From a virus (Duplodnaviria > Heunggongvirae > Uroviricota > Caudoviricetes > Crassvirales), in the IMG/VR virus record IMGVR_UViG_3300037280_000040, positions 20,379-84,378 of that record: DNA of 64,000 bases; one strand, written 5' to 3'. The position numbers and the translations under genes were made by a program. The notes under the pieces are model-generated. The model was not told the origin of the DNA, searched no databases, and saw only the letters and a program-made list of their open reading frames with translations. This document shows, one piece after another, positions 27,813-46,480 of the stretch; within the stretch, counting starts at the first letter, position 1, and the number at the start of each line of letters is the position of its first letter.

Positions 27813-28279
27813 TCTACCATCTGTTTTAATTTATAAATATACTTCTTATCTTTAGCATATTTTATTCTTTTTAAGAAACTAAAGTAATCCTCACTGGGAG
27901 GTTTAAATCTAGCTTGTATGAATAAAGAATATGCTTTTACTGATTCATGCCAATGATTAAATTTCATATACTTACCATTTTGTCCTGTTAGACCAAATAA
28001 GTTCTTTCTTAGTATAAAATTATTAGATTTAAAATGACTTGATTCTAGTAAAGCTTGTACTAATACTACATTTTTACATTTTATACTATAATAATCTAAA
28101 CATTTATTTAGTTCTACAATACTTATAGAATCTGAATTTAAGAAGTTAGGTCTTATCTCAGGCAATAAAATGCCTATATGAGGTCTACTATCTATATACT
28201 CAGTTCTAACAACTCTAGGACTACAAGAAGATATAATATTTAACACCACTAACATAATAATTACTACTTTCTCTCTCAT
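27791..28279 (-). CDS. Lipoprotein with a GH73 glucosaminidase (FlgJ-like) domain. It is a putative peptidoglycan hydrolase and a possible endolysin.
   Basis: The lipobox is LNIISSCSP. VQALLESSHFKSNNFILRKNLFGLTG matches the GH73 signature AQAALESGWG...NNLFGIK. Confidence 0.5.
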   Translation of the reverse strand: MREKVVIIMLVVLNIISSCSPRVVRTEYIDSRPHIGILLPEIRPNFLNSDSISIVELNKCLDYYSIKCKNVVLVQALLESSHFKSNNFILRKNLFGLTGQNGKYMKFNHWHESVKAYSLFIQARFKPPSEDYFSFLKRIKYAKDKKYIYKLKQMVEWQKVHC

Positions 28280-28299
28280 ACTTTATTATTTAATTAATA

Positions 28300-28545
28300 C
28301 TAAATTCTTTCTCTCTCTCTCTGTTTCTTTTTAAAACCTTTCATTAACATAGTAATACCTAAGTCAAATTTTTGTAAATCTGTACTTAAAGTGTTTCTTC
28401 TAATTAAATCTTTGTTTATGAATCTTTTCCTTCTCTTTGCTGTATAAGCTACATCTAATCTTCTTATAGCCATGAGTAAAAGACCTTTTCTCTCTTGAGT
28501 ACTAAATACTAAATCATACTCTTTATCATTAAATCTTTTTCTCAT
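28300..28545 (-). CDS. Basic small protein
   Basis: Lys/Arg-rich ORF. Confidence 0.3.
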   Translation of the reverse strand: MRKRFNDKEYDLVFSTQERKGLLLMAIRRLDVAYTAKRRKRFINKDLIRRNTLSTDLQKFDLGITMLMKGFKKKQRERERI

Positions 28546-28811
28546 AATTTTTTACTATTATGATAAATAATAAACCCTTGAGTAAACATTATACAAATAA
28601 TTAAAAACCATTTACCTATAAAGTTATATTTAGTACTAGATATTAAATCAATTTGTACATGCATACAGATAGTTATAAATCCAATAGTTGCTAATAAGAT
28701 ATAGACAAATCCTAATACTTTGTTTAATTTTTTGCCTGCCATAATGTGATTTGTTTTTAAGTTATTAAAATAATTGATTAATGTATTGATTAATGTATTG
28801 ATTATCAACAC
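28542..28811 (-). CDS. Small two-TM membrane protein, possibly a holin. The true start is probably the internal MAGKK.
   Basis: Two hydrophobic helices, VLGFVYILLATIGFITICMHV and FIGKWFLIICIMFTQGFIIY. The 5' end overlaps a 12-bp tandem repeat. Confidence 0.35.
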   Translation of the reverse strand: MLIINTLINTLINYFNNLKTNHIMAGKKLNKVLGFVYILLATIGFITICMHVQIDLISSTKYNFIGKWFLIICIMFTQGFIIYHNSKKL

Positions 28812-28813
28812 TT

Positions 28814-29224
28814 TGGTGGAGCTAGAGGGAGTCGAACCCTCGTGTTATCTTAATACTTACTAATAATCTTATATATGCTTAGTATTTACTGTACTTTTTC
28901 AGCTATTTCTAGTAATAGAGTGAAATATTGAAAACTCTAGGACTGTTTGGGACACAAACAGACACCACCATGCAATGAGATTGCAATACTTAATATTCCT
29001 CAGTAAGGAGGCAATATATCTCAAGACTTTTTAAGAAAGTTTAAACTTTTTACAACTTTATTTGATAAGGTTGTTGTCACCCCAGTTCTCTTACGCTACT
29101 AAAGCAAGCTTTGCAGCAGGAACAAAAACAATAGTTTTGCCTGTTATTCTTCTTTGAGTATTTAAAGGACTCCTCCATGCATAAATTACTACTTTTCTTG
29201 AGATAGTCTAAACCAACTAGCCCC
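28814..29224 (-). ncRNA. ssrA: tmRNA-like RNA (ssrA-like), about 411 nt
   Basis: The 5' end, GGGGCUAGUUGGUUUAGACUA, parallels E. coli GGGGCUGAUUCUGGAUUCGAC. The 3' end is GAGGGUUCGACUCCCUCUAGCUCCACCA, with a T-arm, an acceptor stem with a G3:U wobble, and an encoded CCA. A tag-like ORF reads AAUAACAGGCAAAACUAUUG...GCUUUAGUAGCGUAA, giving GKTIVFVPAAKLALVA* from a GGC resume codon or AKLLFLFLLQSLL* from GCA. Confidence 0.55.
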
Positions 29225-29246
29225 AGTTTTTTATTTAAAAATAAGA

Positions 29247-29272
29247 GTATAACATAGTTACCTATGTTATAC
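29247..29272. promoter_or_regulatory. Perfect 11-bp inverted repeat, gtataacatag-ttac-ctatgttatac, 23 nt upstream of the tmRNA 5' end
   Basis: Read directly from the sequence. On the minus strand it is followed by a U-rich run. Confidence 0.4.
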
Positions 29273-29429
29273 CCTTAATAAATTAACTAACTTCACAGTC
29301 TGCTAATTTTCAGTGTTAAATTTTCTATTTTAATAAGAAATTTAATACTTATAATACACAATACACATAAATAAAACCGTTATCAAATGTTTAATATTTT
29401 ATATTTTTACTTTAATAGAATTAAAAAGT

Positions 29430-29460
29430 AAATAGCATGACTATTAAAGCCATGCTATTT
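29430..29460 (-). terminator. Candidate intrinsic terminator, 10-bp stem aaatagcatg/catgctattt
   Basis: A hairpin followed on the minus strand by ACUUUUUAAU, downstream of gene 29771-30112. Confidence 0.4.
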
Positions 29461-29770
29461 AAAAATAATTCTATCACCTCTTAAGCCTTCAGTTATTTTT
29501 TCAAATCCTCTATGTATTTCATTCAATTAATTTAATATAATTTAGTCTTTCAGATTCATGCTATAGTGTTTCACTGATGAGAGCATTATCTCATTCAAAG
29601 AGGAGTATTTAGATTATTGTTGTCTACAAGTTTTATATACCAAACAGTATATGGGGAGACACTTACCCTGCTTGATTTAAGAATCTCACTTAAATCTCCT
29701 TAACTTCATATTATATTATATAATATGTAAGGTATGGGTCTAACCAGCCTAGATTATTACTAATCTATTT

Positions 29771-30112
29771 TTATTTTAGCATAGCTTCTAACTCTTCATC
29801 AGAAATTTGAGTAATTTTCAACTCTTTTCTTCTTGCTATTTCAACAAGAATTTTCTGATTATTTTCTTTAATAGCAGCAGCATCTCTAAGAGTTTTAGCT
29901 GCATCCTTTTTAGTAATGTAAATATCTTTTAAGATATTAAAAGATAATTCAATTAACTTATCAACTTTACTTTCAGATTCTTCTAAAAAGTCAAGTTCAT
30001 CATCATCACTAGCTTTAAGAGATTTCTTAATAGCTTTAATAGTGATTTTTAAAGTTGTTACAGAGATTACAATTGTGTACTGATGATTTAGGGTCTCTAA
30101 AAATAGGGTCAT
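29771..30112 (-). CDS. Hypothetical protein
   Basis: ORF overlapping the upstream ORF by 77 nt in a different frame. Confidence 0.3.
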   Translation of the reverse strand: MTLFLETLNHQYTIVISVTTLKITIKAIKKSLKASDDDELDFLEESESKVDKLIELSFNILKDIYITKKDAAKTLRDAAAIKENNQKILVEIARRKELKITQISDEELEAMLK

Positions 30113-30239
30113 CTATAGGTGAAAAGGATTCTAAATATAAATCCCAAGCTTGTTGTCCAGTAATACTACTTCTAAATAGCTTACCTCTCTCGCACATTTT
30201 ATCAAATTGTGCTTGCATTAATTGATTTAATTCTTTCAT
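30036..30239 (-). CDS. Hypothetical small protein
   Basis: ORF with a C-terminal CNLCNNF. Confidence 0.3.
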   Translation of the reverse strand: MKELNQLMQAQFDKMCERGKLFRSSITGQQAWDLYLESFSPIDDPIFRDPKSSVHNCNLCNNFKNHY

Positions 30240-30493
30240 TTATTTAATGTTTTGATTTATAATCTAAAAGTATTTATTAGCACCCTCCTCCTTAGACTCA
30301 CTAAGATTTATTCCACGCATTTAAGGTAGGGTCACATTATAACAATCTCAGGTTAGTAGCCCAATGCTATAATTTGCTGAGAACTCATTTGTGTTGATAT
30401 ACTACTTAGGATATATTCCCTACACCTTTCCTTTCTCAAAGGAACAACACATTCAGACTCTCATCTGATATCCAATTATTTAAGTGGTTTTCA

Positions 30494-31075
30494 ATGTTTA
30501 GTCCACTATTTCTCAAAATAATAATCAATAGATTTGGTAATATGAGATATTTTACTTATATTTGTATTTTAAGATTTAAAATTATGAATAAAGAAACTTT
30601 AATTAATCTGATTAATCAGAATTTAAGCACTTGGCAGATTGCTGAACAATCTAATACTACTCAAGCTAATGTAAGATATTGGCTTAAAAAGTATGATTTA
30701 CAAACTATTAGAACTATTAATAAAGAGAATGAATTAAAATTATGCCCTAAATGTAATACATCTAAGTTAAAATCTGAATTTTATCAATATAAGAAAAGTA
30801 GTTCTTATTGTAAATCTTGTATTGTTGAATCTAATTTAGAAAGACAAAGAGATACTAAATCTTTAGCTGTTGAATATAAAGGAGGAAAATGTTCTATATG
30901 TGGTTACAATAAATCTATTGCAGCTTTAGAATTTCATCATTTAAATCCAACAGAAAAAGATAAAGATTACTTTAATATGAGAGCAGGATTAACTCCTACT
31001 CTAAAAATAGAATTGGATAAATGTGTACTTCTTTGTGCAAATTGTCATAGAGAAACACATCATTTAATTCAATAA
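30494..31075 (+). CDS. Free-standing HNH endonuclease with an N-terminal HTH. It is the only plus-strand gene in the minus-strand block.
   Basis: The HNH motif is EFHHLNP...CANCHRETHH, with a Cys ribbon CPKCN...CKSC. The HTH-like region is STWQIAEQSNTTQANVRYWLKKY. Confidence 0.6.
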   Translation: MFSPLFLKIIINRFGNMRYFTYICILRFKIMNKETLINLINQNLSTWQIAEQSNTTQANVRYWLKKYDLQTIRTINKENELKLCPKCNTSKLKSEFYQYKKSSSYCKSCIVESNLERQRDTKSLAVEYKGGKCSICGYNKSIAALEFHHLNPTEKDKDYFNMRAGLTPTLKIELDKCVLLCANCHRETHHLIQ

Positions 31076-32743
31076 TTACCTCTTATTAGTTAGGTAACAT
31101 GCATCATTATTTACAATCACAATACCTGCATTAGTACAATGAATAATTGAGTTAGCTGAAGCTACAGAACAATCAAATTCAAGTATTGGATTCATATCTA
31201 ATAATCTAGCAAATTGTATTTTATTATCATAAGGTATTACTGCTAAATCATTATTAAGCACATCAAAGTATTTTAATTCGGTCTCAGAAGCTAAATAAGT
31301 AAGTTTTAGATTTGAGATACTAGCATATTGATAAGTTACCTTCTCATTAGCTATTTCTTCAAGTAAAACTAAGTTTCCTCTTTGAATTATATTCTTAATT
31401 GCTATATCAGCCATTACATAGTTTAAACTATTCTTTTCACAATACATCAATACAGTTTTACCTGATACACTCTGATAAATACTATCTATCTGAGTAAATC
31501 CTCTACCATATACAGAAGTTATAGTATAAGATAATCCTAATAAACTTTTACTTAAATCAAAATTATACAGTTTATCTTCTGTTACTAATACAAGATTAGA
31601 ACCATATAAATCAGCTTTGATTTTAATAGTACTAGGAACACTAGCTATATGTTCTAATTTAGGATAGAGTTGAAGTAAGTTACCATTACTATTGAGACAA
31701 TAAATAGCTTTTTCATATACAAAAAACTTAGGATTTTTAGCAGTTATTTTGTCACTTTTTACAAGAGTAGCAGTACCTTTAAGTGAGGTATCATATATAA
31801 AATACTCACCTCTAACTGTATACAATAATAACAAATCCTTACTAGCAGTTGATTGAATAATCTGAGTACCTACTCCTCCAAACATTGTTCTTACAGTCAT
31901 ATTAGCTGATTGTATATTTACAGGTTGTTTAATTACAGTATTAATAATCATAGTATTAAGACTTATAATAAATCTTTCTCCATTATTAAATACTCTATTA
32001 AATTGATTGAGTAACATATTATCAGAAATAGGCTCATAGCACTTAGGAATTATAATATCAGGAGAATTAGACAATATTGATTCCTTCTTAATCATTCTAT
32101 CTGCTATCTTAGGTATCTTTTTATGCATACCTTTGAATGGGTGTACATAAGTAAGCATATTAAATACCAAAATAGACAAGGCAAAATAATCAGAATTAAT
32201 AGATACATCTCCATTAAATAAAAAGTCCCTAACATCTTCTAATAACACACCTGAATGTTTAAATCCAGGGGTCTGAAAGGAATCAGTATCTATAAAATAC
32301 ACAATTCCATCTCTATTAATTAAGATATTATAAGGATTTAAATCTCCTATAACTACCTGATTGCTATGAGCATATTTAACACCTTGTATTAAAGCTTCAA
32401 TTACTTTTTTCTTTGTATCTAAAGTAATTGATTCTCTATTACAAAACACTTTATTTAATAATGAAACTAAAGGAAAGAAATCACTAGGAATTTTCCTCAT
32501 TGAGAATCCAAGAACATGTTTATTAGCATCATAAAGTAATGATTCAGGCTTGATAAACATGGGATTATCTAATTTGTGTAATTCTAGAAATTTACTTTCA
32601 GCAATAGGTTTAACATTGGGAAGATACAATTTAACCACATGGTTAGCATCCAAATCAAGGACTCTTCCTTCTCCACCTCTTGCAATCTCTTTAGATTCAT
32701 TAATATCATAAAGTAGTTGACCATTCTTATCAAATACTTTCAT
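31076..32743 (-). CDS. Eukaryotic-like Ser/Thr protein kinase with a C-terminal domain of about 280 aa and unknown fold
   Basis: The Gly-rich loop is IARGGEGRV, followed by the VVKL lysine. The catalytic loop is HSNQVVIGDLNPYNILI and the DFG-like motif is FIDTDSF. Confidence 0.6.
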   Translation of the reverse strand: MKVFDKNGQLLYDINESKEIARGGEGRVLDLDANHVVKLYLPNVKPIAESKFLELHKLDNPMFIKPESLLYDANKHVLGFSMRKIPSDFFPLVSLLNKVFCNRESITLDTKKKVIEALIQGVKYAHSNQVVIGDLNPYNILINRDGIVYFIDTDSFQTPGFKHSGVLLEDVRDFLFNGDVSINSDYFALSILVFNMLTYVHPFKGMHKKIPKIADRMIKKESILSNSPDIIIPKCYEPISDNMLLNQFNRVFNNGERFIISLNTMIINTVIKQPVNIQSANMTVRTMFGGVGTQIIQSTASKDLLLLYTVRGEYFIYDTSLKGTATLVKSDKITAKNPKFFVYEKAIYCLNSNGNLLQLYPKLEHIASVPSTIKIKADLYGSNLVLVTEDKLYNFDLSKSLLGLSYTITSVYGRGFTQIDSIYQSVSGKTVLMYCEKNSLNYVMADIAIKNIIQRGNLVLLEEIANEKVTYQYASISNLKLTYLASETELKYFDVLNNDLAVIPYDNKIQFARLLDMNPILEFDCSVASANSIIHCTNAGIVIVNNDACYLTNKR

Positions 32744-33461
32744 CAGTTGGCTCTTTTATGAATCTAACAATACTAATATCATCAAAATTAATATAACCTT
32801 TTTTTCTAAAAATGTTATACTTTCTTGATAACATAGCATCTGACCCTATTAAACTTCTATCATTTAAGAATGTATCAATTGCTAATGCTGTAGCATCTTC
32901 TTTAAGTGCATTTCTAAATGAACAGATACCATCACTACAGATACTTACATCTTTTTTAAATGTAAATGAATGTAGATTAGTATGTTTAGCCATTACTAGT
33001 GTAGGATTCTTATCTAAGTAGTAAGCCATATAATCAGGAGCATTATCTTTAGATTCAAGAATTATTAATTCATCATCCACTTTTATTACTCCATCACCTG
33101 AGCTAAGAATTAAAACTTCATCACCTCTAATAATACAAATTATCATAGTTGATACTAATTCTAATTCTTTTAAATCTAATAAATGTTGTACTTCTTTAAA
33201 TCCATCAAATATATCATGAAATAGTATATTCATAATAAAATGAAGATTTAAATCAGCTACATTCTTAAAATTATTACAGGAATGTTTTAATACTTTAACT
33301 AATAGAGAAGAAGCAAAATGAGAATCCATACCGGTGGAGCAACCATCAAAGATTGCTCCAATGTATAAAGGTTCTTTTGCATCTTGAACTCTAAAGAATA
33401 AGGAATCCTCACAATAAGTGAGATGGTCATCTCCTTTTTTAACAAGAGTTCTAACTTCCAT
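32730..33461 (-). CDS. PP2C-family Ser/Thr phosphatase
   Basis: GAIFDGCSTG matches the (V)FDGHGG metal-binding motif. ILSSGDGV matches the GDSR-like motif. Confidence 0.55.
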   Translation of the reverse strand: MEVRTLVKKGDDHLTYCEDSLFFRVQDAKEPLYIGAIFDGCSTGMDSHFASSLLVKVLKHSCNNFKNVADLNLHFIMNILFHDIFDGFKEVQHLLDLKELELVSTMIICIIRGDEVLILSSGDGVIKVDDELIILESKDNAPDYMAYYLDKNPTLVMAKHTNLHSFTFKKDVSICSDGICSFRNALKEDATALAIDTFLNDRSLIGSDAMLSRKYNIFRKKGYINFDDISIVRFIKEPTDESI

Positions 33462-34144
33462 TAGAAAGTTACATCTAAAGGATTAGCACCACTACTTGAT
33501 TTAGAGATAGAAGAAGAAATGAAATTAATCATTTTTCTTATCTCAGCACCAGTATTACCTACTTTAGCCAAATGTTGAATACCCATTAACTTTTGAGCTC
33601 TCTCAAAAGAAGAATCATCTCCTACTCCAAATAAGATTGAAGTAAAAGAAAAGGCACTTGCTTCATTTTTAGCAATATCATCAAGAGTAGTTTTAACAGC
33701 ATCAGCTGCACCTCTCTGTGATGAATTATCTTCACCATCAGTAATTACAAATACTAATGTTTTAACATTAATACCAGTATTTTCAAGGTTCTCTCTGTAC
33801 TCAATAGCATTTTTAATACCTTGAGCCACTGCATCATATAAAGCTGTACCATGACCTGATGGAGTAAATTGAATAGTTGGTACTCCAATAATAGGTTGGA
33901 ATCCACTTCTTACTTTAACTTTATCATGGAATTCTACAATAGAAACAAATAATCTATCATGAATATGACTTTGTTGCATAGTTTGAATAAAATCATTGAA
34001 GGCATTATTCAAGTCACTAGAATATGGGTATATTGATGGAGAAATATCCACAATGAATACAGCATTAATAGTTTCTTCTACTTGAATTTGCTCTGGGTCA
34101 AAATTATTAAAATCCAGAGATAAGTCTAAATCATTAAAATCCAT
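33461..34144 (-). CDS. von Willebrand factor A (vWA) domain protein with a MIDAS motif
   Basis: The MIDAS is FIVDISPSI (DxSxS), then TALYDAV, then VFVITDGEDN. Confidence 0.6.
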   Translation of the reverse strand: MDFNDLDLSLDFNNFDPEQIQVEETINAVFIVDISPSIYPYSSDLNNAFNDFIQTMQQSHIHDRLFVSIVEFHDKVKVRSGFQPIIGVPTIQFTPSGHGTALYDAVAQGIKNAIEYRENLENTGINVKTLVFVITDGEDNSSQRGAADAVKTTLDDIAKNEASAFSFTSILFGVGDDSSFERAQKLMGIQHLAKVGNTGAEIRKMINFISSSISKSSSGANPLDVTF

Positions 34145-34149: not shown

Positions 34150-34938
34150 TTACAGTTTAATATTGGTTGATATTTCAAATTTAATTCCCATAGCTTGAGC
34201 ATCTGCATAAATACTATCAGCCATATGTTCAAATCCTGTTACAGGACTCATACAGTCAGTTAAGATTATAAATTTCTTAGCTAACTCAGGAAATTGCATG
34301 GCTTGTTTAAGAGTATTAGCCACACAATGAGATTGTGCTTCTCCTGCAAAGTAAATAACATCAAATGTTTCCAGCTTTTGTAACAAAGCTTGATTCAATT
34401 GAGTCTCAGGATGTCCTGCTACTGGAATATTTGCTCTGAATGCACCAAAGTGTTCAGTTAAGGGATAAGTTCCTTTTGCTACTACTTGATAGAAAGATTT
34501 TGTTTCTCTAGCCCAAGCTGTAACAGCATCCATAATAGGCTCAACAAAAGAAGCTCCTTTAGTTCCAATAACACAATGCTCAGCCCAAATACAATGAGGG
34601 AATTCTCCTTGTTTCTCAAGTTCCTCAATATACTTAGTAGCTTCATTAGGCACAAATCTTGGACTCCATTTACCATCTAACACATCTTGATATGTTATGA
34701 TTGTAAAAATAGGTGGGAAATTACCATCTTTATCTGTCCAAAATCCTGGGTGAGCAATATCTAATACTTGGTGACTGTCCATAGTCATACCAATGTAATT
34801 AATGCTGTTTTTATTTTTAGTAATAAATTCAGCTAGTCTCAACATGTCTTTATCTGCATTATCTACAAATAATGATCCTTTTGGGTCACAAAAGTCAAAT
34901 TGAGCATCTATAATTAAAAGAGCTATTTTTTTATACAT
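34150..34938 (-). CDS. Isochorismatase-family cysteine hydrolase, nicotinamidase (PncA)-like
   Basis: IALLIIDAQFDFCDPKGSLFV matches PncA ALLLVDLQNDFC..G.L.V. A candidate catalytic Cys lies in FAGEAQSHCV. Confidence 0.55.
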   Translation of the reverse strand: MYKKIALLIIDAQFDFCDPKGSLFVDNADKDMLRLAEFITKNKNSINYIGMTMDSHQVLDIAHPGFWTDKDGNFPPIFTIITYQDVLDGKWSPRFVPNEATKYIEELEKQGEFPHCIWAEHCVIGTKGASFVEPIMDAVTAWARETKSFYQVVAKGTYPLTEHFGAFRANIPVAGHPETQLNQALLQKLETFDVIYFAGEAQSHCVANTLKQAMQFPELAKKFIILTDCMSPVTGFEHMADSIYADAQAMGIKFEISTNIKL

Positions 34939-34962: not shown

Positions 34963-35295
34963 TTAAATCTTTTTAGTGAGAAATGTAATAATTTTACCTG
35001 CTTTATATACAATATTCTTATCATCAGTATAATACTGAATTATTAGATTTATAATAAAAGCTAATGACATAATAATATTAATAAAAGGAATAAAGAATGT
35101 TATTCCCATTACTATATATACAATTAATGGATATTTTACTCTTTCAGTAGCTACTGAATCTTCAATTAATTCTAATTTATTAGAGTAAAATCCAGTATTT
35201 TTTCTAAAACAATCTTCAGTATATCTATAAGATTGTTTTAGCATATTGTATAATAGAATATACAATATTAAAGCTATGATATATCCTATCCACAT
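34963..35295 (-). CDS. Small membrane protein
   Basis: Two hydrophobic segments. Confidence 0.35.
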   Translation of the reverse strand: MWIGYIIALILYILLYNMLKQSYRYTEDCFRKNTGFYSNKLELIEDSVATERVKYPLIVYIVMGITFFIPFINIIMSLAFIINLIIQYYTDDKNIVYKAGKIITFLTKKI

Positions 35296-35299
35296 AGTA

Positions 35300-36154
35300 C
35301 TACTTAATTAATAGTCCACCATTAACTCCATAAGTAGTAGGATATTTACCATCCCATACTTTTAATCTTTGTAATTCTACAAGAGCAGGAGTTAAAGATT
35401 TTGATACTTTCTGATTATAATATTCTTCTGCATCTGCTTCAATTTTTCTTGCATCTGCACGTCCTTTTGCTTCAGCTATAGCTATATTGGCATGAGCTGT
35501 TGCAAGAGCAACTTTATTCTCTTCCTTTTGAGCATCTTGAGTCATTGCAACTTTAGCATCTAAAGCATCTTTTATAGATTTAGGTATTCTTACTGAACCA
35601 ATTAGATATATATTATCAATTAATATACCATCATTCTTAAGATTAGCTGTTACAACCTTTTTAACTGAATCAATTAATAATCCTTTACCAGCACCATACA
35701 CTGATTCAACAGGCATATTACCACTAATTCTATTCAATGCATCTCTTACTGTATTCCTTAATACTATACTTCTTATTTCTTCAACTTGTTTATGATAGGT
35801 AGTATACATATGAGGTAATTTATCAAAATCAAAATGCATAGCTATTCCTAAATCAACTGCACATTCCATTCCTTCTTTTGTTTGAAATGTAAATTCTTCA
35901 TTGTCTTTAGAACCTTCAGTTGAACTGGCAGTAAATGTATAATTAACCTTAAAGGTAGGGAAATCATAGTAGTTTTGACCCCATGATTCAAAATAATTAC
36001 CTGGTCCAACTGCTTTAGGTTGTACTCCTTTATTATCACCATACTTTTCAAGAATAACTGAAGCTGAGCCTATCTCAGTTCTGTGCATACAACTTGTGAG
36101 AGTCATAGTCAAAGCTACCATAAGTAGCATAGAAAAAATCTTTAATCCTTTCAT
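35300..36154 (-). CDS. Lipoprotein with an SPFH/Band-7 (HflK/C-like) domain
   Basis: Signal plus lipobox MLLMVALTMTLTSCM. The C-terminus has an Ala/Glu-rich coiled coil, ALATAHANIAIAEAKGRADARKIEADAEE, typical of SPFH proteins. Confidence 0.5.
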   Translation of the reverse strand: MKGLKIFSMLLMVALTMTLTSCMHRTEIGSASVILEKYGDNKGVQPKAVGPGNYFESWGQNYYDFPTFKVNYTFTASSTEGSKDNEEFTFQTKEGMECAVDLGIAMHFDFDKLPHMYTTYHKQVEEIRSIVLRNTVRDALNRISGNMPVESVYGAGKGLLIDSVKKVVTANLKNDGILIDNIYLIGSVRIPKSIKDALDAKVAMTQDAQKEENKVALATAHANIAIAEAKGRADARKIEADAEEYYNQKVSKSLTPALVELQRLKVWDGKYPTTYGVNGGLLIK

Positions 36155-36177: not shown

Positions 36178-36414
36178 TTAATTATTATTTTGAGAATTTA
36201 AATCCTGATATAAGAAAATACCAAATCTGATTATTTTATATAATGCAAATAGTATTAAAATTGCTGAGATACTTATACCTCCAATAAATGCAATAGTACT
36301 TGCCTGACTCATAAGTCTAGGTATTTCTATTGCAAATGCTATAAAATAAATTGCTATAAATATAAGCAATTTAATAGTAAAGGTTGTATAAGTAATTTTA
36401 TTAAACTGTTTCAT
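36178..36414 (-). CDS. Small membrane protein
   Basis: Two TM helices. It is part of a run of four small TM ORFs. Confidence 0.35.
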   Translation of the reverse strand: MKQFNKITYTTFTIKLLIFIAIYFIAFAIEIPRLMSQASTIAFIGGISISAILILFALYKIIRFGIFLYQDLNSQNNN

Positions 36415-36660
36415 TTAATGTTTATATTTACTATGAACTTCTTCATGATTATCTATTAGTTTAGATAACCATTTTGCTAATTTAAAAAATGTTATCACTA
36501 TTAAAACTAATTCAATACCTACAGCAATAATAGTTGTAAGAAATATTTCTAATTTTAATAATGCAGGGACCACTAAGAACATTAATATAACATATATCAA
36601 TATCCATAGAACATATTTACCTAGTATTAATAGCAGGTAATTAAATTTATAAGAACTCAT
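36415..36660 (-). CDS. Small membrane protein
   Basis: Two TM helices. Confidence 0.35.
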   Translation of the reverse strand: MSSYKFNYLLLILGKYVLWILIYVILMFLVVPALLKLEIFLTTIIAVGIELVLIVITFFKLAKWLSKLIDNHEEVHSKYKH

Positions 36661-36839
36661 GCTATAAAAGCTTTAATTATAATTACAATAATAATAATTA
36701 AGAATAAATGATATATAAAGAATCTTCTTATTGTATCAATTCTTATAAATAGAATGTTAGTTTGTATTATCTTATATAATAAATATATAAGTCCTAATCC
36801 AGGAATTAAACTAACAATAAAAGGATAATGATTATGCAT
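36657..36839 (-). CDS. Small membrane protein
   Basis: Hydrophobic ORF. Confidence 0.3.
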   Translation of the reverse strand: MHNHYPFIVSLIPGLGLIYLLYKIIQTNILFIRIDTIRRFFIYHLFLIIIIVIIIKAFIA

Positions 36840-36902
36840 ATTATATTTTTTTAATAGTTTAAACTTATTAGATTCTAGGTCTAAGAAGATAGATAAAATA
36901 TA

Positions 36903-37175
36903 TTACTTTATACTTACCTCATTATTATTCACTGTTTTAGTAGGATGTTCAGGTATATTAAACCATCCAATTACACCACCTATAGGGGGCATAAATATAC
37001 CTACAGTATAAAGAACTTCTCTTTTACCTAGATTATTTATATCCCAATCAGATTTAATATCTTTTACAATACATTGAATCCATCCTATTATTAGGAAAAT
37101 TACTACTATGAATGTAAAACATCCTGAACCTTGTGCTATATGATTATAGCCAAAATTGCCACCACTTCTTCTCAT
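36903..37175 (-). CDS. Small membrane protein
   Basis: Two TM helices. Confidence 0.35.
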   Translation of the reverse strand: MRRSGGNFGYNHIAQGSGCFTFIVVIFLIIGWIQCIVKDIKSDWDINNLGKREVLYTVGIFMPPIGGVIGWFNIPEHPTKTVNNNEVSIK

Positions 37176-38585: not shown

Positions 38586-38625
38586 AATGTTCTTAAGTAC
38601 TAAGATTAATAATTTATTTAATTGT

Positions 38626-38698
38626 GATTCAGAAGGGATTCAAACCCTTGACCCCTACCTTAGAAGGGTAGTGCTCTATTCAGCTGAGCTACTGAACC
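38626..38698 (-). tRNA. tRNA-Arg (anticodon UCU)
   Basis: Manual fold: acceptor GGUUCAG/CUGAAUC, D stem GCUC/GAGC, anticodon stem CUACC/GGUAG with loop CUUCUAA, T arm AAGGG-UUUGAAU-CCCUU. Confidence 0.7.
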
Positions 38699-44123: not shown

Positions 44124-44194
44124 AGTTTCCTAGTGTAATGGTAGCACAAGAGTCTTTGGTCCTCTTAGTTAAAGTTCAAATCTTTAGGAGACTA
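44124..44194 (+). tRNA. tRNA-Gln (anticodon UUG)
   Basis: Manual fold: acceptor AGUUUCC/GGAGACU, D stem GUG/CAC, anticodon loop CUUUGGU, T arm UAAAG-UUCAAAU-CUUUA. Confidence 0.55.
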
Positions 44195-44203
44195 CAATAA
44201 TAT

Positions 44204-44275
44204 GCCTTTATAGTGTAATGAATAGCACACGATTCTTCTAAGATTATAGTATAGGTTTGAATCCTATTAGGGGTA
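44204..44275 (+). tRNA. tRNA-like, probably tRNA-Arg (UCU), with a weak anticodon stem
   Basis: Acceptor GCCUUUA/UAGGGGU is wobble-rich. The T arm is AUAGG-UUUGAAU-CCUAU. The anticodon loop is CUUCUAA, but only 4 of 5 stem pairs form. Confidence 0.4.
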
Positions 44276-44290
44276 CAATAATTAATAAAT

Positions 44291-44557
44291 ATGATACAAA
44301 GAGTTCCTGTATTGAGAGAATGTTCTTATAAAGAATATAATGATAACATAGATAAACATCCTGATGAATATCTTAGATTATTTGTAGTTGATAGTAATAC
44401 TGAAAGTACTGAGGATATTACAAAAGAGGTTGATGATAATATTGATGCAATAGGTAATACTGATAAGAATAAGTTTTACAAAGTATTAGGATTAGTTAGT
44501 TCTCAAGAGTTAGAAAAAGATATACAACAAACACAACAAAGTAGTTTGTTGAATTAA
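44291..44557 (+). CDS. Hypothetical acidic protein
   Basis: ORF. Confidence 0.35.
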   Translation: MIQRVPVLRECSYKEYNDNIDKHPDEYLRLFVVDSNTESTEDITKEVDDNIDAIGNTDKNKFYKVLGLVSSQELEKDIQQTQQSSLLN

Positions 44558-44718
44558 ATCATAAATGTTTTTAATAAAGTTGATTTAGCTATACTTAGTC
44601 TGTGAAGATAGAGATAGCACAAAAATATAGATATAGTTCAGTTGCTAGAATGCTTGGTTTGGGACCAAGAGGTCAAGAGTTGGAGTCTCTTTATCTATAC
44701 AATTTATTTTAGAATTAA

Positions 44719-44932
44719 AATGGAAGAAGAAAAGAAAACATTAGAACCTTATCAACTAAGAGTTATTGATGAGTTTAAAGATATTGATTTTAAAGTAAGA
44801 AAGATAGAGAAATTTATATTAACTGATGTATATAAAAATTTATCTAAATCAGAACAAAGTATGATAGACTTACAGGTTATGTATATGACTGGTTATTATA
44901 AAGTTTTAATGGAAAGAATAAATAGATTTTAA
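44719..44932 (+). CDS. Hypothetical small protein. The start was moved to the internal MEEEKKT.
   Basis: ORF. The upstream part of the listed ORF is unlikely to be coding. Confidence 0.35.
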
Positions 44933-44935
44933 TAA

Positions 44936-45009
44936 GGGGTCTTAGCTCAATTGGCTAGAGCGATTGCTTTGCAAGCAATAGGTAGTGGGTTCAATCCCCA
45001 CAGATTCCA
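44936..45009 (+). tRNA. tRNA-Ala (anticodon UGC)
   Basis: Acceptor GGGGUCU/AGAUUCC with G3:U70. D stem GCUC/GAGC. Anticodon stem AUUGC/GCAAU with loop UUUGCAA. T arm GUGGG-UUCAAUC-CCCAC. Confidence 0.75.
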
Positions 45010-45014
45010 CATAT

Positions 45015-45088
45015 GTTCTAATAGCTCAATTGGTTAGAGCTTTTGACTGTTAATCAAAGGGTTGTAGGTTCAAGTCCTACTTAGAACG
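45015..45088 (+). tRNA. tRNA-Asn (anticodon GUU)
   Basis: Acceptor GUUCUAA/UUAGAAC. Anticodon stem UUUGA/UCAAA with loop CUGUUAA. T arm GUAGG-UUCAAGU-CCUAC. Confidence 0.75.
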
Positions 45089-45111
45089 CAGTATTAATTT
45101 AATTAAAAACA

Positions 45112-45414
45112 ATGGCACAAATTGAAGTAATGTTAGAGATTATAGATGATGTAATTCCTTTATATCCTGATTTAGTATCAAAAGATTATAAAGAAACTAT
45201 CATATATGATTATAAAAATTTATTAGATACTAAAGAATCTCTATATAAATATAGAGAAATAGTAAGAGAATTAGAAGTAGCTTTAAAAGAAAGAGAATAT
45301 AAATTTAATAAACAATCTCAATTTTTTAATATTGTTTATAAGACTGAAATTAAACAAGGAGTTGATAAACCTGAATATGCTGATACTATGCATGTAAAGG
45401 GAAAAGTATATTAA
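45112..45414 (+). CDS. Hypothetical protein
   Basis: ORF. Confidence 0.4.
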   Translation: MAQIEVMLEIIDDVIPLYPDLVSKDYKETIIYDYKNLLDTKESLYKYREIVRELEVALKEREYKFNKQSQFFNIVYKTEIKQGVDKPEYADTMHVKGKVY

Positions 45415-45415
45415 T

Positions 45416-45643
45416 ATGACTTGGGAAGAAGCTTACTTAGAGATGGAGAAAGGTAATATTATTACCACTCCTAATAGTCCTAATTATTGTTTACTATATG
45501 CTCCTAATCATATATTAGTATTTTGTGAACCTGATAGATTATATCATATTAGTAGTAATAAAAGAATTAAAGAAGTTACTGATTATATAGTTGATAATAC
45601 TAAGAGAGATATTATTAATAATTTAGTAATAAAACTAAAATAG
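45416..45643 (+). CDS. Hypothetical small protein
   Basis: ORF 2 nt after the previous stop. Confidence 0.35.
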   Translation: MTWEEAYLEMEKGNIITTPNSPNYCLLYAPNHILVFCEPDRLYHISSNKRIKEVTDYIVDNTKRDIINNLVIKLK

Positions 45644-45677
45644 TTTATTTTTATCTTCCTACTCAATTTTAAAGCGT

Positions 45678-45938: not shown

Positions 45939-45956
45939 CCTTAAAAACTTAATAAA

Positions 45957-46397: not shown

Positions 46398-46406
46398 TTA
46401 GTCTAA

Positions 46407-46479
46407 GGACCAGTAGCTCAGTTGGTAGAGCACCTGACTCATAATCAGTAAGTCCCAAGTTCAATCCTTGGATGGTCCA
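46407..46479 (+). tRNA. tRNA with a CAU anticodon, Met or Ile2-lysidine type
   Basis: Acceptor GGACCAG/AUGGUCC with a G7·A66 mismatch. D stem GCUC/GAGC. Anticodon loop CUCAUAA. T arm CCAAG-UUCAAUC-CUUGG. Confidence 0.55.
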
Positions 46480-46480
46480 C

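What the first reader, a model, noticed from the sequence alone, without database searches (positions are those of the whole stretch)
31076..34144. Three adjacent genes encode a Ser/Thr kinase, a PP2C phosphatase and a vWA (MIDAS) protein on the phage
The three genes are tightly packed and the kinase and phosphatase genes overlap.

The first encodes a Hanks-type kinase (Gly loop GGEGRV, catalytic HSNQVVIGDLNPYN, DTD in place of DFG). It has a roughly 280-aa C-terminal domain of unknown fold.

The second encodes a PP2C phosphatase (FDGCSTG, SSGDGV). The third encodes a vWA protein with an intact DxSxS...T...D MIDAS.

Kinase, PP2C and vWA/FHA triads are bacterial signalling modules. Having all three on a phage suggests a self-contained phospho-signalling circuit.

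Possible uses:
- Host takeover, as with T7 Gp0.7.
- Neutralising kinase-based abortive-infection defences.
- A phosphorylation-gated assembly step, with the vWA protein acting as a metal-dependent adaptor.

It sits beside a PncA-like nicotinamidase and an SPFH lipoprotein, which makes the region look like an anti-defence or host-manipulation island.
Basis: partly seen in the sequence, partly recalled or inferred. Interest (0 to 1): 0.85.

Follow-up and report, generated by a model that had tools for sequence, protein, structure and literature searches.

The report
Phage nicotinamidase with kinase-phosphatase switch
A gut crAss-like phage carries four linked genes (a nicotinamide-recycling enzyme plus a vWA protein, a phosphatase and a kinase) that also sit inside the NAD+ salvage operon of its Bacteroidales hosts and recur in many unrelated phages, which suggests a regulated way for phages to handle the NAD+ pool that bacterial immunity often attacks.

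Summary
Three tightly packed minus-strand genes encode a vWA protein with an intact MIDAS site, a PP2C phosphatase and a Hanks-type kinase, and every catalytic residue is invariant across their families.

The conserved unit is four genes, not three. The upstream nicotinamidase (PncA-like, 34150-34938) travels with the triad in the same order in 25 of 36 distinct IMG/VR phage lineages. These include jumbo phages and a common human-gut phage.

In Bacteroidales chromosomes the triad is inserted into the NAD+ salvage operon: nrtR-pncB-pncA-[vWA-PP2C-kinase]-nadE. Sister genomes have the same operon without the insert.

The vWA and the kinase are of the E. coli YegL and YegI type, so this is a TerY-P-like triad. 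The kinase's unknown C-terminal domain is a seven-bladed WD40-like beta-propeller found only in this kinase family, not the Zn-ribbon or OB fold of described TerY-P kinases.

The nearest annotated crAss relative (cr111_1) carries NARP1-type NAD+ genes in the corresponding variable arm.

Best reading: a phospho-regulated nicotinamide-salvage module, probably used by phages to sustain NAD+ against NAD+-depleting immunity.

I found no prior description of this. It is a new variant of a known kind. The mechanism is inferred, not shown.

The parts
34150..34938 (-). Nicotinamidase (PncA-like, 262 aa). First gene of the conserved four-gene unit and its most conserved member.
   Evidence: Invariant catalytic D11/K155/C205, metal ligands D54/H56, and W118-x-x-H121-C122, which aligns with M. 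tuberculosis PncA W68/H71/C72. AF2 model has pLDDT 95. The top 15 Foldseek PDB hits are all nicotinamidases. Cellular orthologues sit between pncB and nadE. Pfam Isochorismatase (18.8 bits against 27) and NCBIfam PncA (36 bits against 174) are both below their cut-offs.
33461..34144 (-). TerY/YegL-type vWA protein (227 aa) with an intact MIDAS site, a C-terminal phi-I-S-x-S-phi-S motif and a Ser/Thr-rich tail ending in Phe.
   Evidence: Pfam VWA scores 26.7 bits against a 23.8 cut-off. MIDAS residues D33, S35, S37, T100 and D136 are 97-100% conserved in 66 divergent homologues, as are S210 and S212. hhalign of the family profile against E. coli YegL gives probability 96.7% and E 3.8e-10 over 182 columns, including the C-terminal motif. 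JGI names homologues 'YegL'.
32730..33461 (-). PP2C-family Ser/Thr phosphatase (243 aa).
   Evidence: Pfam PP2C_2 scores 34.8 bits against a 24 cut-off, the same family as E. coli PphC. Metal-binding residues D19, D39-G40, D123, D177-G178 and D227-D228 are 98-100% conserved in 46 homologues.
31964..32743 (-). Kinase gene, N-terminal Hanks-type catalytic domain (residues 1 to about 260), YegI-like and non-RD.
   Evidence: Pfam Pkinase scores 36.8 bits against a 31.7 cut-off. The alignment to PDK1 places K38, D134, N139 and D152 at the catalytic positions. G23-G24-E25-G26, K38, D134, N139 and D152-x-D154-S155 are invariant in 118 homologues. BLASTP against E. coli YegI gives E 2e-11, with shared GGEG, GDxN, IDxDSFQ and HPxxG motifs.
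31079..31909 (-). Kinase gene, C-terminal seven-bladed WD40-like beta-propeller (residues about 279-555).
34963..36154 (-). Co-oriented upstream genes that are not part of the conserved module: an SPFH/Band-7 lipoprotein (35300-36154) and a 110-aa membrane protein (34963-35295).
   Evidence: Band_7 scores 57.6 bits and phrog_200 E 9e-59. Gaps to the neighbouring genes are 4 and 24 nt. Homologues were found only in the closest relative, L004, and in none of the other loci.
30494..31075 (+). HNH endonuclease gene, convergent with the kinase gene and abutting its stop codon. Marks the 3' boundary of the module and is not part of it.
   Evidence: Pfam HNH and phrog_2255 E 2e-34. It is the only plus-strand gene in a minus-strand block. 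It is absent at this position in L004.

Best explanation
The three genes are the regulatory part of a four-gene module: nicotinamidase (PncA-like), then a TerY/YegL-type vWA protein, then a PP2C phosphatase, then a YegI-type Ser/Thr kinase fused to a beta-propeller.

Shown:
- The four genes form one translationally coupled unit.
- That unit is conserved in the same order across many unrelated phages.
- It is also present in Bacteroidota chromosomes, where it lies inside the NAD+ salvage operon nrtR-pncB-pncA-[vWA-PP2C-kinase]-nadE.
- All four proteins keep their catalytic or metal-binding residues.

Inferred, step 1 (about 85% likely): the enzyme deamidates nicotinamide to nicotinate. This is the entry step of the Preiss-Handler route, which the host's PncB, NadD and NadE complete.

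Inferred, step 2 (about 60%): the vWA protein is a direct partner of the nicotinamidase. PncA-vWA also exists as a stand-alone gene pair. The kinase and PP2C would form an ATP-driven on/off switch acting on that pair. The kinase would autophosphorylate at the invariant S155 of its DxDS loop, as YegI does at Ser-162, and would respond to a protein or ligand bound by its propeller. The likely substrate is the vWA's Ser-rich C-terminus or MIDAS-dependent complex.

Inferred, step 3 (about 45%): the phage brings the module to keep NAD+ available in the infected Bacteroidales cell. It would channel the nicotinamide released by NAD+-cleaving defence systems back into NAD+ synthesis. That would make it a functional alternative to the NARP1-type genes that a related crAss-like phage carries in the same genome arm.
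For: Unit and coupling:
- Gaps and overlaps between the four genes are 5, -1 and -14 nt.
- tblastn finds all four proteins collinear in 10 of the first 12 related loci. PncA is the most conserved of them.

Census:
- 63 of 80 IMG/VR loci anchored on the nicotinamidase carry PncA>vWA>PP2C>kinase. After de-replication that is 25 of 36 lineages, plus a few permuted versions.
- Of the assessable cellular loci, 12 have the full tetrad, 12 have PncA+vWA and 29 have PncA alone.
- PncA-vWA is a self-contained bicistron in Cytophagales and Microscillaceae.

NAD+ link:
- In L018 and L026 the order is NrtR, PncB, PncA, vWA, PP2C, kinase, NadE.
- Sister genomes have nrtR-pncB-pncA-nadE without the triad.
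- Some phages interleave PncB or NadE with the triad: L105, L117, L106, L173 and L174.
- One phage has an ADP-ribosylglycohydrolase inserted between the PP2C and the kinase.
- NrtR is released from DNA by ADP-ribose, the product of NAD+ cleavage (PMC2330246).

Enzyme identity.

Triad identity:
- YegI similarity at E 2e-11 and YegL at E 3.8e-10.
- YegI is an active kinase whose Ser-162, in the sequence DSDSFQ, is essential for autophosphorylation (bioRxiv 10.1101/819920). That residue aligns with the invariant S155 here.

Positional analogy:
- cr111_1 has the same replication backbone.
- In its variable arm it carries genes annotated nicotinamide phosphoribosyltransferase and ribose-phosphate pyrophosphokinase. 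Those are the annotations carried by NARP1's Namat and Adps (bioRxiv 10.1101/2024.02.11.579819).
- The window has no homologue of those genes, and cr111_1 has no tetrad.
Against: - No experiment exists on any member of this family. The substrate of the kinase, the ligand of the propeller and the partner of the vWA are all unknown.
- The nicotinamidase shows no residue specific to vWA- or triad-associated copies. There is therefore no sequence sign of a dedicated regulatory interface on the enzyme.
- The conserved Ser motif of the vWA is also present in kinase-less PncA-vWA pairs and in E. coli YegL. It may be structural rather than a phospho-site.
- The window, and the L129 group's locus within its roughly 7-kb flanks, carry PncA but not PncB, NadD or NadE. 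NAD+ rebuilding would depend on host enzymes, ATP and PRPP.
- Removing nicotinamide could also relieve product inhibition of Sir2-type NADases, which would not help the phage.
- The Pfam and NCBIfam curated cut-offs for Isochorismatase and PncA are not reached.
- The residue aligned to the kinase alpha-C Glu is a conserved Lys (K51) in the PDK1 alignment.
- The positional argument from cr111_1 concerns a roughly 11-kb variable arm, not an exact gene-for-gene replacement.
Confidence: 0.55

Rival explanations
1. The module is an NAD+-related auxiliary metabolic module with no role in immunity. It would tune nicotinamide and NAD+ for the phage's own needs. Examples are removing nicotinamide that inhibits NAD+-consuming phage or host enzymes (ADP-ribosyltransferases, Tpt1-type RNA repair), or supporting NAD+-dependent ligase during replication.
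For: - The cellular operon looks like housekeeping NAD+ homeostasis: NrtR, PncB and NadE flanks, and L014 is flanked by mutS2 and ribF.
- Phage loci carrying the tetrad also encode Tpt1 (PTS_2-RNA), ADP-ribosylglycohydrolase, Hen1/PNKP RNA-repair genes and NUDIX enzymes.
- A study of gut jumbo phages reports independent NAD+ synthesis and use systems in phages (PMC11662467).
Against: - The three experimentally studied phage NAD+ modules found in the literature search (NARP1-3) were each shown to counter NAD+-depleting defence.
- The cassette sits in a variable accessory arm, where counter-defence genes typically lie.
- This reading does not explain why a kinase-phosphatase switch would be needed.
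Confidence: 0.2
2. The module is a TerY-P-type anti-phage or superinfection-exclusion system carried by the phage. The triad would sense a competing infection and the nicotinamidase would be its effector. By destroying nicotinamide it would deprive rival phages of the substrate their NARP1 or NARP2 pathways need to rebuild NAD+.
For: - TerY-P-like triads are reported as stand-alone anti-phage systems and as parts of restriction-type islands (PMC11090510 citing Gao 2020 and Anantharaman 2012; PMC4978471).
- The vWA and the kinase are YegL- and YegI-type.
- NARP1 and NARP2 both consume nicotinamide.
- The cassette lies in a variable arm.
Against: - In cells the triad sits between pncA and nadE, downstream of pncB, which is a biosynthetic context rather than a defence island.
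- The tetrad is much more frequent in phage lineages (25 of 36) than in cellular loci (12 of 54).
- No nuclease or toxin effector is present.
- The kinase lacks the OB fold or Zn-ribbon of the defence-type TerY-P kinases.
- PADLOC gives no TerY-P hit, although a control showed that test is uninformative.
Confidence: 0.13
3. This is the first reader's view: a free-standing phospho-signalling circuit for host takeover (T7 Gp0.7-like broad phosphorylation of host proteins), for neutralising kinase-based abortive infection, or for gating virion assembly. The nicotinamidase would be only a neighbour.
For: - The kinase is catalytically intact and phage-encoded.
- PADLOC's nearest models are defence kinases such as PD-T4-6, mad6 and MkoA, but these matches cover only the generic catalytic core.
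- A beta-propeller could dock many protein substrates.
Against: - The same four-gene unit exists in uninfected Bacteroidota chromosomes inside the NAD+ salvage operon.
- The kinase nearly always comes with its own phosphatase, the vWA and PncA, which indicates a closed circuit rather than a broad takeover kinase.
- The module lies in the replication and early arm, far from the structural genes.
- There is no similarity to Gp0.7 beyond the kinase fold, and this was not tested directly.
Confidence: 0.07
4. The PncA-like enzyme does not act on free nicotinamide. It would act on another amide, for example a nicotinamide-containing nucleotide or signal, or an unrelated amide, and the module would process that compound.
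For: - The protein is about 70 residues longer than canonical PncA. It has a highly conserved insertion (residues about 57-115) containing extra invariant His, Trp and Asp residues.
- It fails the curated Pfam and NCBIfam thresholds.
- The isochorismatase superfamily includes many other amidases, which appear lower in the fold search.
Against: - The triad-less orthologues are the pncA gene of nrtR-pncB-pncA-nadE operons.
- The nicotinamidase-specific W-x-x-H-C motif and the catalytic triad are invariant.
- All top structural matches are nicotinamidases, including long eukaryotic forms (Pnc1 and Drosophila Naam).
Confidence: 0.05

Closest known systems
TerY-P (TerY-phosphorylation) triad, defined by Anantharaman, Iyer and Aravind 2012 and validated as an anti-phage system by Gao et al. 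2020, both as summarised in PMC11090510
   Same: It has the same three components in the same order: a TerY-like vWA, a PP2C phosphatase and a Ser/Thr kinase. It is predicted to be a metal-dependent phospho-switch and it spreads horizontally.
   Different: - The kinase's C-terminal domain is a WD40-like beta-propeller, not a Zn-ribbon or an OB fold.
- The module is coupled to a nicotinamidase and, in cells, embedded in an NAD+ salvage operon. Described TerY-P triads accompany Ter genes or restriction and DNA-processing genes.
- It is predominantly carried by phages.
- No defence phenotype has been tested.
E. coli yegL-pphC(yegK)-yegI operon (bioRxiv 10.1101/819920 and 10.1101/303594)
   Same: - The vWA profile matches YegL at E 3.8e-10, including the MIDAS site and the C-terminal S-x-S motif.
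- The kinase domain matches YegI at E 2e-11, with the same unusual GD-x-N and ID-x-DSFQ loops.
- YegI's essential autophosphorylation site, Ser-162, aligns with the invariant S155.
- The phosphatase belongs to the same Pfam family (PP2C_2) as PphC.
   Different: - YegI is a two-pass membrane protein with a different C-terminal region. The phage kinase is soluble and has a propeller.
- The phage kinase keeps the canonical catalytic-loop Asn (N139) that YegI lacks.
- The similarity between the PP2C and PphC is weak (hhalign probability 27%).
- The E. coli operon has no nicotinamidase, and its function is also unknown.
Phage NAD+ reconstitution pathways: NARP1 (Adps + Namat), NARP2 (Nampt + Nmnat) and NARP3 (PnuC + NadR-like)
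   Same: These are phage-borne cassettes of NAD+ salvage enzymes that use the products of NAD+ cleavage. A NARP1-type gene pair occupies the corresponding variable arm of the related crAss-like phage cr111_1.
   Different: - The chemistry differs: this module deamidates nicotinamide to nicotinate, which enters the Preiss-Handler route.
- It is not self-sufficient for NAD+ synthesis.
- It carries a kinase-phosphatase-vWA switch that none of the NARPs has.
- No counter-defence phenotype has been tested.
- Neither the NARP1/2 paper nor the NARP3 paper mentions nicotinamidase.
Bacterial NrtR-controlled salvage I operons (nrtR-pncA-pncB-nadE types; PMC2330246)
   Same: Bacteroidales orthologues of the window's nicotinamidase are the pncA of nrtR-pncB-pncA-nadE operons. 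The enzyme signature is the same.
   Different: The vWA-PP2C-kinase insert between pncA and nadE is not mentioned in the NrtR regulon paper I searched (PMC2330246). The phage copies lack nrtR and usually lack pncB and nadE as well.
Deinococcus radiodurans DRA0331-0334 operon (vWA, Ser/Thr kinase, FHA protein, PP2C; bioRxiv 10.64898/2026.01.23.701218)
   Same: It is an operon that couples a vWA protein with a Ser/Thr kinase and a PP2C phosphatase.
   Different: The gene order differs, there is an additional FHA protein, and it is linked to the DNA-damage response. It has no nicotinamidase. Homology to the window's proteins was not tested.

Membership tests
TerY-P triad | A TerY/YegL-type vWA protein with an intact MIDAS site | tested here: met
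   hhalign of the vWA family profile against E. coli YegL gives probability 96.7% and E 3.8e-10 over 182 columns. The MIDAS residues D-x-S-x-S, T and D are 97-100% conserved. JGI labels homologues YegL.
TerY-P triad | A PP2C-family phosphatase encoded next to the vWA gene | tested here: met
   PF13672 scores 34.8 bits against a 24 cut-off, and PphC is in the same family at 176.7 bits. The metal-binding Asp residues are invariant. Direct similarity to PphC is weak: BLASTP E 0.95 and hhalign probability 27%.
TerY-P triad | A Hanks-type Ser/Thr kinase of the YegI kind as the third gene, in the order vWA, PP2C, kinase | tested here: met
   BLASTP against YegI gives E 2e-11 over residues 1-215, with shared atypical motifs. 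The gene order and the overlaps were read from the sequence.
TerY-P triad | The kinase is fused at its C-terminus to a Zn-ribbon (Anantharaman 2012) or an OB fold (Gao 2020) | tested here: not met
TerY-P triad | Association with Ter genes or with restriction and DNA-processing genes; an anti-phage phenotype | tested here: not met
   The context is NAD+ salvage (NrtR, PncB, PncA, NadE) in cells, and PncA in phages. The phenotype cannot be tested with these tools.
TerY-P triad | Recognition by profile models of defence systems (PADLOC) | tested here: inconclusive
   There is no TerY-P hit for the window's proteins. The positive control also failed: E. coli YegL and PphC get no hit and YegI hits only generic kinases.
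Nicotinamidase (PncA; isochorismatase-like hydrolase superfamily) | The catalytic triad Asp-Lys-Cys | tested here: met
   D11, K155 and C205 are invariant in 21 sequences that are 56-85% identical to the window protein.
Nicotinamidase (PncA; isochorismatase-like hydrolase superfamily) | The metal site (Asp, His, His) and the W-x-x-H-C substrate and metal motif of nicotinamidases | tested here: met
   D54, H56, and W118-x-x-H121-C122 are invariant. phmmer aligns IWAEHC with SWPPHC of M. tuberculosis PncA.
Nicotinamidase (PncA; isochorismatase-like hydrolase superfamily) | The fold | tested here: met
   The AF2 model has pLDDT 95. The top 15 Foldseek PDB hits are all nicotinamidases (E 6e-15 to 1e-8, TM on target 0.72-0.82 for all but the longer Drosophila Naam at 0.54), ranking ahead of other family amidases.
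Nicotinamidase (PncA; isochorismatase-like hydrolase superfamily) | The curated profile thresholds | tested here: not met
   PF00857 scores 18.8 bits against a 27 cut-off. NCBIfam NF008623 scores 36.1 bits against a 174 cut-off. A conserved insertion of about 60 residues splits the domain.
Nicotinamidase (PncA; isochorismatase-like hydrolase superfamily) | Genomic coupling to pncB and nadE (salvage I pathway) | tested here: met
   Cellular orthologues lie in nrtR-pncB-pncA(-triad)-nadE operons. This is not the case in the window itself, which has no PncB or NadE.
Nicotinamidase (PncA; isochorismatase-like hydrolase superfamily) | Hydrolysis of nicotinamide to nicotinate | not testable with these tools
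   This needs an enzyme assay.
Hanks-type (eukaryotic-like) protein kinase | Gly-rich loop, VAIK Lys, catalytic-loop Asp and Asn, and the Mg-binding Asp of DFG | tested here: met
   GGEGRV, K38, D134, N139 and D152 align to PDK1 and are invariant in 118 homologues. HRD is replaced by IGD (a non-RD kinase) and DFG by DTD.
Hanks-type (eukaryotic-like) protein kinase | The alpha-C helix Glu that pairs with the VAIK Lys | tested here: inconclusive
   In the PDK1 alignment the equivalent position is K51, which is 93% conserved. E49 and E54 are nearby but are not conserved. The related YegI is active despite lacking 3 of 10 canonical residues.
Phage NAD+ reconstitution pathways (NARP1/2/3) | The component enzymes: Adps + Namat, Nampt + Nmnat, or PnuC + NadR-like | tested here: not met
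   The window has no homologue of cr111_1's Nampt-type or Prs-type proteins, and none of PncB or NadE. Nmnat, PnuC and NadR were not searched. Only 64 kb of the genome is visible.
Phage NAD+ reconstitution pathways (NARP1/2/3) | Restores NAD+ and rescues the phage from NAD+-depleting defence | not testable with these tools
   This needs infection assays and metabolite measurements.

The most novel reading that the evidence does not exclude
The tetrad would be a fourth, mechanistically distinct phage route for dealing with NAD+-targeting immunity. It would be a nicotinamidase-based (deamidating) salvage entry point whose activity is gated by a eukaryotic-like kinase, PP2C and vWA switch that senses the state of the infected cell through a dedicated beta-propeller. 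This would also give the first physiological output, control of NAD+ salvage, for the widespread but functionally orphan TerY-P / YegL-PphC-YegI class of triads, in bacteria as well as in phages.
Probability: 0.35. Interest if true: 0.85.

Novelty: new variant of a known kind. Interest (0 to 1): 0.72.

Why it matters
NAD+ depletion is one of the commonest outcomes of bacterial anti-phage immunity. Phage pathways that rebuild NAD+ (NARP1-3) are a very active field. All known ones are plain enzyme pairs, and none uses nicotinamidase.

This module would add two things:
- A different chemistry, the Preiss-Handler entry step.
- A signalling layer, which is unprecedented in this setting.

It occurs in the phages of Bacteroidota. 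That includes crAss-like phages, jumbo phages and an abundant human-gut phage lineage. Almost nothing is known about defence and counter-defence in this group.

Independently, TerY-P / YegLKI triads are widespread and validated as defence-associated, but they have no known target. The natural pairs of operons described here (nrtR-pncB-pncA-nadE with and without the triad) make the question directly testable in cultivable Bacteroidales.

If the module turns out to be only a housekeeping regulator that phages picked up, it would still be the first Ser/Thr phospho-switch tied to bacterial NAD+ salvage.

Tried and rejected
1. Megablast of the 5.8-kb region against 50,697 phage records found nothing. 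The phage has no close deposited relative at the DNA level.

2. An IMG/VR scan with the single kinase sequence found nothing, because its peptide patterns were too specific. Anchoring on the nicotinamidase alignment worked.

3. PADLOC gave no TerY-P hit. At first this looked like evidence against TerY-P membership. I rejected that reading after the E. coli YegL/PphC/YegI control also got no hit.

4. I hypothesised that genomes with only the PncA-vWA pair replace the PP2C and kinase with other enzymes, as the TPR-SpoIIE phosphatase and Pkinase near the pair in Eisenibacter suggested. I rejected this: in most pair-only loci the next genes are on the opposite strand.

5. A search for residues in the nicotinamidase specific to vWA- or triad-associated copies, as candidate interface or phospho-sites, found none.

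6. I considered the Ser-rich vWA tail as a kinase-specific phospho-acceptor. This was weakened because S210 and S212 are equally conserved in kinase-less pairs and in YegL.

7. The sigma-70 promoter scan gave fewer hits than shuffled sequence (54 against 76), and it does not cover Bacteroidota or crAss promoters. No convincing internal terminator was found.

8. The original TerY-P paper (PMC4104200) and Gao 2020 (PMC7985843) are not held. Their definitions were taken second-hand from PMC11090510 and PMC4978471.

9. The afdb50 fold library was unavailable.

10. I considered a linker-fused or concatenated PncA+vWA structure prediction but did not run it. The tool returns no inter-chain error estimates, so the interface could not be judged.

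Full report
**1. The observation**

The window is part of a crAss-like phage. It encodes a large terminase, a portal, a major head protein and a DNA polymerase. Its major capsid protein is 65-70% identical to those of cr111_1, cr108_1 and the PhiCrAssBcn phages.

At the stated coordinates three minus-strand ORFs are transcribed in this order:
- vWA, 34144..33461, 227 aa
- PP2C, 33461..32730, 243 aa
- kinase, 32743..31076, 555 aa

Read directly from the sequence, the vWA stop and the PP2C start share TAATG. The kinase ATG lies 14 nt inside the PP2C frame. The upstream PncA-like gene ends 5 nt before the vWA start.

Each protein passes Pfam's curated threshold, though only modestly: VWA 26.7 bits against 23.8, PP2C_2 34.8 against 24, Pkinase 36.8 against 31.7.

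**2. Are the proteins functional?**

*Kinase.* A phmmer alignment to PDK1 places K38, D134, N139 and D152 at the VAIK-Lys, catalytic Asp, catalytic-loop Asn and DFG-Asp positions. Across 118 full-length homologues the following are invariant: G23-G24-E25-G26, K38, D134, N139 and D152-x-D154-S155.

*PP2C.* The metal-binding residues D19, D39-G40, D123, D177-G178 and D227-D228 are 98-100% conserved in 46 divergent sequences.

*vWA.* The MIDAS residues D33, S35, S37, T100 and D136 are 97-100% conserved in 66 sequences.

**3. The kinase's C-terminal domain**

An AlphaFold2 model of residues 262-555, built with 22 family sequences, is confident: pLDDT 88.7, pTM 0.85. It contains 27 beta strands.

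A profile of this domain, searched against 1.84 billion representative proteins, finds only 161 matches. Every full-length match is a 520-600-aa protein with the propeller in the same place after a kinase domain. The best match among viral structure predictions is an uncharacterised 'serine/threonine protein kinase' of an uncultured myovirus.

The domain is therefore a private sensor or docking module of this kinase family.

**4. The conserved unit is four genes**

The kinase is absent from all deposited crAss-like genomes. It has a full-length homologue in a 462-kb uncultured huge phage. There, the order is PncA-like, vWA, PP2C, kinase.

tblastn of the window's proteins against the first twelve related loci shows all four genes collinear in ten of them. 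These loci include:
- a close crAss-like relative (99-kb contig)
- jumbo-phage contigs
- phages from peat and groundwater metagenomes

Identities to the window proteins are 50-60% for the PncA-like protein, 41-71% for the vWA, 30-45% for the PP2C and 34-41% for the kinase.

Anchoring a search on the nicotinamidase family gave 97 IMG/VR loci and 393 loci in species-representative genomes. I examined the best 80 of each.

With family HMMs, the viral loci break down as follows:
- 63 of 80 carry PncA>vWA>PP2C>kinase.
- After collapsing near-identical copies this is 25 of 36 lineages.
- A few more have permuted arrangements.

The largest cluster holds 39 contigs. It is a phage with an SPP1-type portal. 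A 95%-identical 6.5-kb fragment of it comes from human faecal samples (MT837596).

Among the assessable cellular loci, all from Bacteroidota-type bins apart from one labelled Chlorobi:
- 12 have the full tetrad
- 12 have PncA+vWA only
- 29 have PncA alone

In Cytophagales and Microscillaceae the PncA-vWA pair is a self-contained bicistron.

The SPFH lipoprotein and the 110-aa membrane protein upstream in the window are conserved only in the closest relative. They are not part of the module.

**5. What the first gene is**

The family keeps the following invariant:
- the nicotinamidase catalytic triad D11/K155/C205
- the metal ligands D54/H56
- the W118-x-x-H121-C122 motif, which aligns with W68/H71/C72 of M. 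tuberculosis PncA

Its AlphaFold2 model has pLDDT 95. The top 15 Foldseek matches in the PDB are all nicotinamidases: yeast Pnc1, A. baumannii, Leishmania, P. horikoshii, Drosophila, M. tuberculosis, S. pneumoniae and B. subtilis. They rank ahead of other amidases of the superfamily.

A conserved insertion of about 60 residues explains why the curated Pfam and NCBIfam thresholds are missed.

**6. The decisive context**

In two Bacteroidales loci, L018 and L026 (the latter on a 5.1-Mb contig), the gene order is:
- NrtR (NUDIX plus NrtR winged helix)
- PncB (nicotinate phosphoribosyltransferase)
- the nicotinamidase
- vWA
- PP2C
- kinase
- NadE (glutamine-dependent NAD synthetase)

Sister genomes have nrtR-pncB-pncA-nadE without the three genes. 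The triad is therefore an insert into the salvage I / Preiss-Handler operon.

NrtR repressors are released from DNA by ADP-ribose, the product of NAD+ cleavage (PMC2330246).

Several phage loci interleave PncB and/or NadE with the triad: L105, L117, L106, L173 and L174. One has an ADP-ribosylglycohydrolase between the PP2C and the kinase.

The window itself has no PncB, NadE, NrtR, Nampt-type or Prs-type gene.

**7. Relation to known triads**

The TerY-P triad is defined as a TerY-like vWA, a PP2C and a Ser/Thr kinase fused to a C-terminal Zn-ribbon. TerY-P-like modules with an OB-fold kinase act as stand-alone anti-phage systems (PMC11090510; PMC4978471). E. coli yegL-pphC-yegI is a triad of this composition (vWA, PP2C phosphatase, Ser/Thr kinase) (bioRxiv 10.1101/819920).

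Comparisons with the E. coli proteins:
- The window kinase matches YegI at E 2e-11, with the same atypical GD-x-N and ID-x-DSFQ loops.
- The vWA family profile matches YegL at E 3.8e-10, including a shared C-terminal phi-S-x-S-phi motif.
- The PP2C is in PphC's Pfam family, but its direct similarity to PphC is only weak.

YegI's essential autophosphorylation site, Ser-162, aligns with the invariant S155.

The module is therefore TerY-P-like in composition and order. It fails two features of the described family: the kinase's C-terminal domain and the genomic association. I file it as a new variant rather than a member. PADLOC's silence is uninformative, because the E. coli control is not recognised either.

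**8. Relation to phage NAD+ biology**

The known phage pathways are:
- NARP1: Prs-like Adps plus Nampt-like Namat
- NARP2: Nampt plus Nmnat
- NARP3: PnuC plus a NadR-like enzyme

Each counters NAD+-depleting defence. Neither the NARP1/2 paper nor the NARP3 paper mentions nicotinamidase, and the NARP3 paper has no vWA or PP2C and no protein kinase. A full-text search found no paper linking nicotinamidase with vWA or PP2C.

The nearest annotated relative, cr111_1 (Steigviridae), shares the window's replication backbone: HKD-helicase, DnaB, Sak4 and primase are collinear. In its variable arm, between tRNA-Arg and the helicase, it carries genes annotated nicotinamide phosphoribosyltransferase and ribose-phosphate pyrophosphokinase. 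These are the annotations of the NARP1 pair. The window's corresponding arm (about 27.4-38.6 kb, also bounded by a tRNA-Arg at 38624-38698) carries the PncA tetrad instead.

This is positional analogy within a variable arm, not a gene-for-gene replacement.

**9. Most likely mechanism**

Shown: a translationally coupled four-gene unit with intact active sites, conserved across very divergent phages and embedded in cellular NAD+ salvage operons.

Inferred:
- The enzyme converts nicotinamide to nicotinate for the host's PncB-NadD-NadE route.
- The vWA is its direct partner. The nesting PncA, PncA+vWA, full tetrad supports this.
- The kinase and PP2C switch that pair on or off. The kinase is activated through S155 autophosphorylation and is guided by its propeller.
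- The phage uses the module to maintain NAD+ when NADase defences or other NAD+ consumers release nicotinamide.

Weak points:
- There are no experiments on any family member.
- The nicotinamidase has no class-specific residue.
- The vWA Ser motif is also conserved in kinase-less pairs.
- The window lacks the downstream salvage enzymes.

Rivals, scored in the report sections:
- an immunity-independent metabolic role
- a TerY-P-type exclusion system that uses nicotinamide removal against rival phages
- a Gp0.7-like takeover kinase
- a non-nicotinamide substrate

**10. Verdict**

The finding is a new variant of a known kind. It is a TerY-P-like triad with a private beta-propeller kinase, fused operonically to a nicotinamidase and spread mainly by phages of Bacteroidota.

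Interest is fairly high. It links two active fields, NAD+-centred phage-host conflict and the orphan TerY-P/YegLKI triads, and it offers natural with-and-without operon pairs for direct testing.

Noticed in passing
window 28814-29224 (-): ARAGORN calls a tmRNA gene with tag peptide GKTIVFVPAAKLALVA. Rfam finds no tmRNA, or any other family, at gathering threshold in 28000-31200. Two strong hairpin-plus-T-run terminator-like sites lie just upstream at 29242-29277 and 29429-29461 on the minus strand. Whether this is a real, divergent phage tmRNA is unresolved.
   Followed up: partly
window 38624-38698 (-) and 44124-47412 (+): There are eleven tRNA genes: Arg, Gln, Arg, Pro, Ala, Asn, Met, His, Phe, Leu and Met. 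Ten of them form a cluster just after the strand switch. GC skew changes sign at about 40-42 kb.
   Followed up: no
window 30494-31075 (+): An HNH endonuclease gene is the only plus-strand gene in a long minus-strand block. Its stop codon abuts the kinase's stop codon (30494..31075 against 31076..). It is absent at this position in the close relative L004, so it looks like a homing-endonuclease insertion. An HNH-like fragment (51% identity) also lies just upstream of the kinase in huge phage L002.
   Followed up: partly
L176 (NC_055880.1, cr111_1) 9314-12009: The related crAss-like phage cr111_1 carries adjacent genes annotated nicotinamide phosphoribosyltransferase, phosphoheptose isomerase and ribose-phosphate pyrophosphokinase. 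This is a NARP1-type pair in a Steigviridae genome, and it lies in the arm that holds the PncA tetrad in the window. Whether they are Namat and Adps or true Nampt and Prs was not tested.
   Followed up: partly
L008 5890-6998; L008 1-170; L010 1-3231: In one phage lineage a 107-aa gene and an ADP-ribosylglycohydrolase are inserted between the PP2C and the kinase. The neighbourhood also holds Tpt1 (PTS_2-RNA), DnaJ, AAA ATPases, RlaP and YqeY. A related lineage has Hen1 plus PNKP RNA-repair genes next to the tetrad.
   Followed up: no
L129 5334-6812 and 12581-14170 (IMG/VR; 39 near-identical contigs, L129-L175): A phage lineage with an SPP1-type portal carries a divergent tetrad (PncA of 302 aa, about 35% identity to the window). 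A 95%-identical fragment comes from human faeces (MT837596). The tetrad is preceded by a 492-aa DUF2828/DUF7788/VWA_2 protein, which is a second vWA-type gene.
   Followed up: partly
L036 7846-8715: In one Bacteroidales genome an FRG-domain protein is inserted between the nicotinamidase and the vWA gene.
   Followed up: no
L011 (ENA ERZ1292623 contig, 82 kb; NCBI MAG labelled Nanoarchaeota): The contig carries the tetrad together with phage-type RNA-repair, DnaJ and AAA genes. NCBI names its kinase 'RIO1 family regulatory kinase/ATPase [Nanoarchaeota archaeon]'. It is probably a phage contig mis-binned into an archaeal MAG.
   Followed up: no
L012 7001-8698 (NCBI GCA_054923775.1): A full-length kinase-propeller homologue (34% identity) stands alone in a cellular context, between a CCA-adding/poly(A) polymerase-type gene and DAP epimerase. 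It has no vWA, PP2C or PncA nearby.
   Followed up: no
window 36178-37175 (-): A run of four small, strongly hydrophobic ORFs (60-90 aa) lies immediately upstream of the SPFH lipoprotein gene on the same strand. Together with the SPFH gene and the 110-aa membrane protein, this looks like a membrane-directed gene set of unknown role.
   Followed up: no
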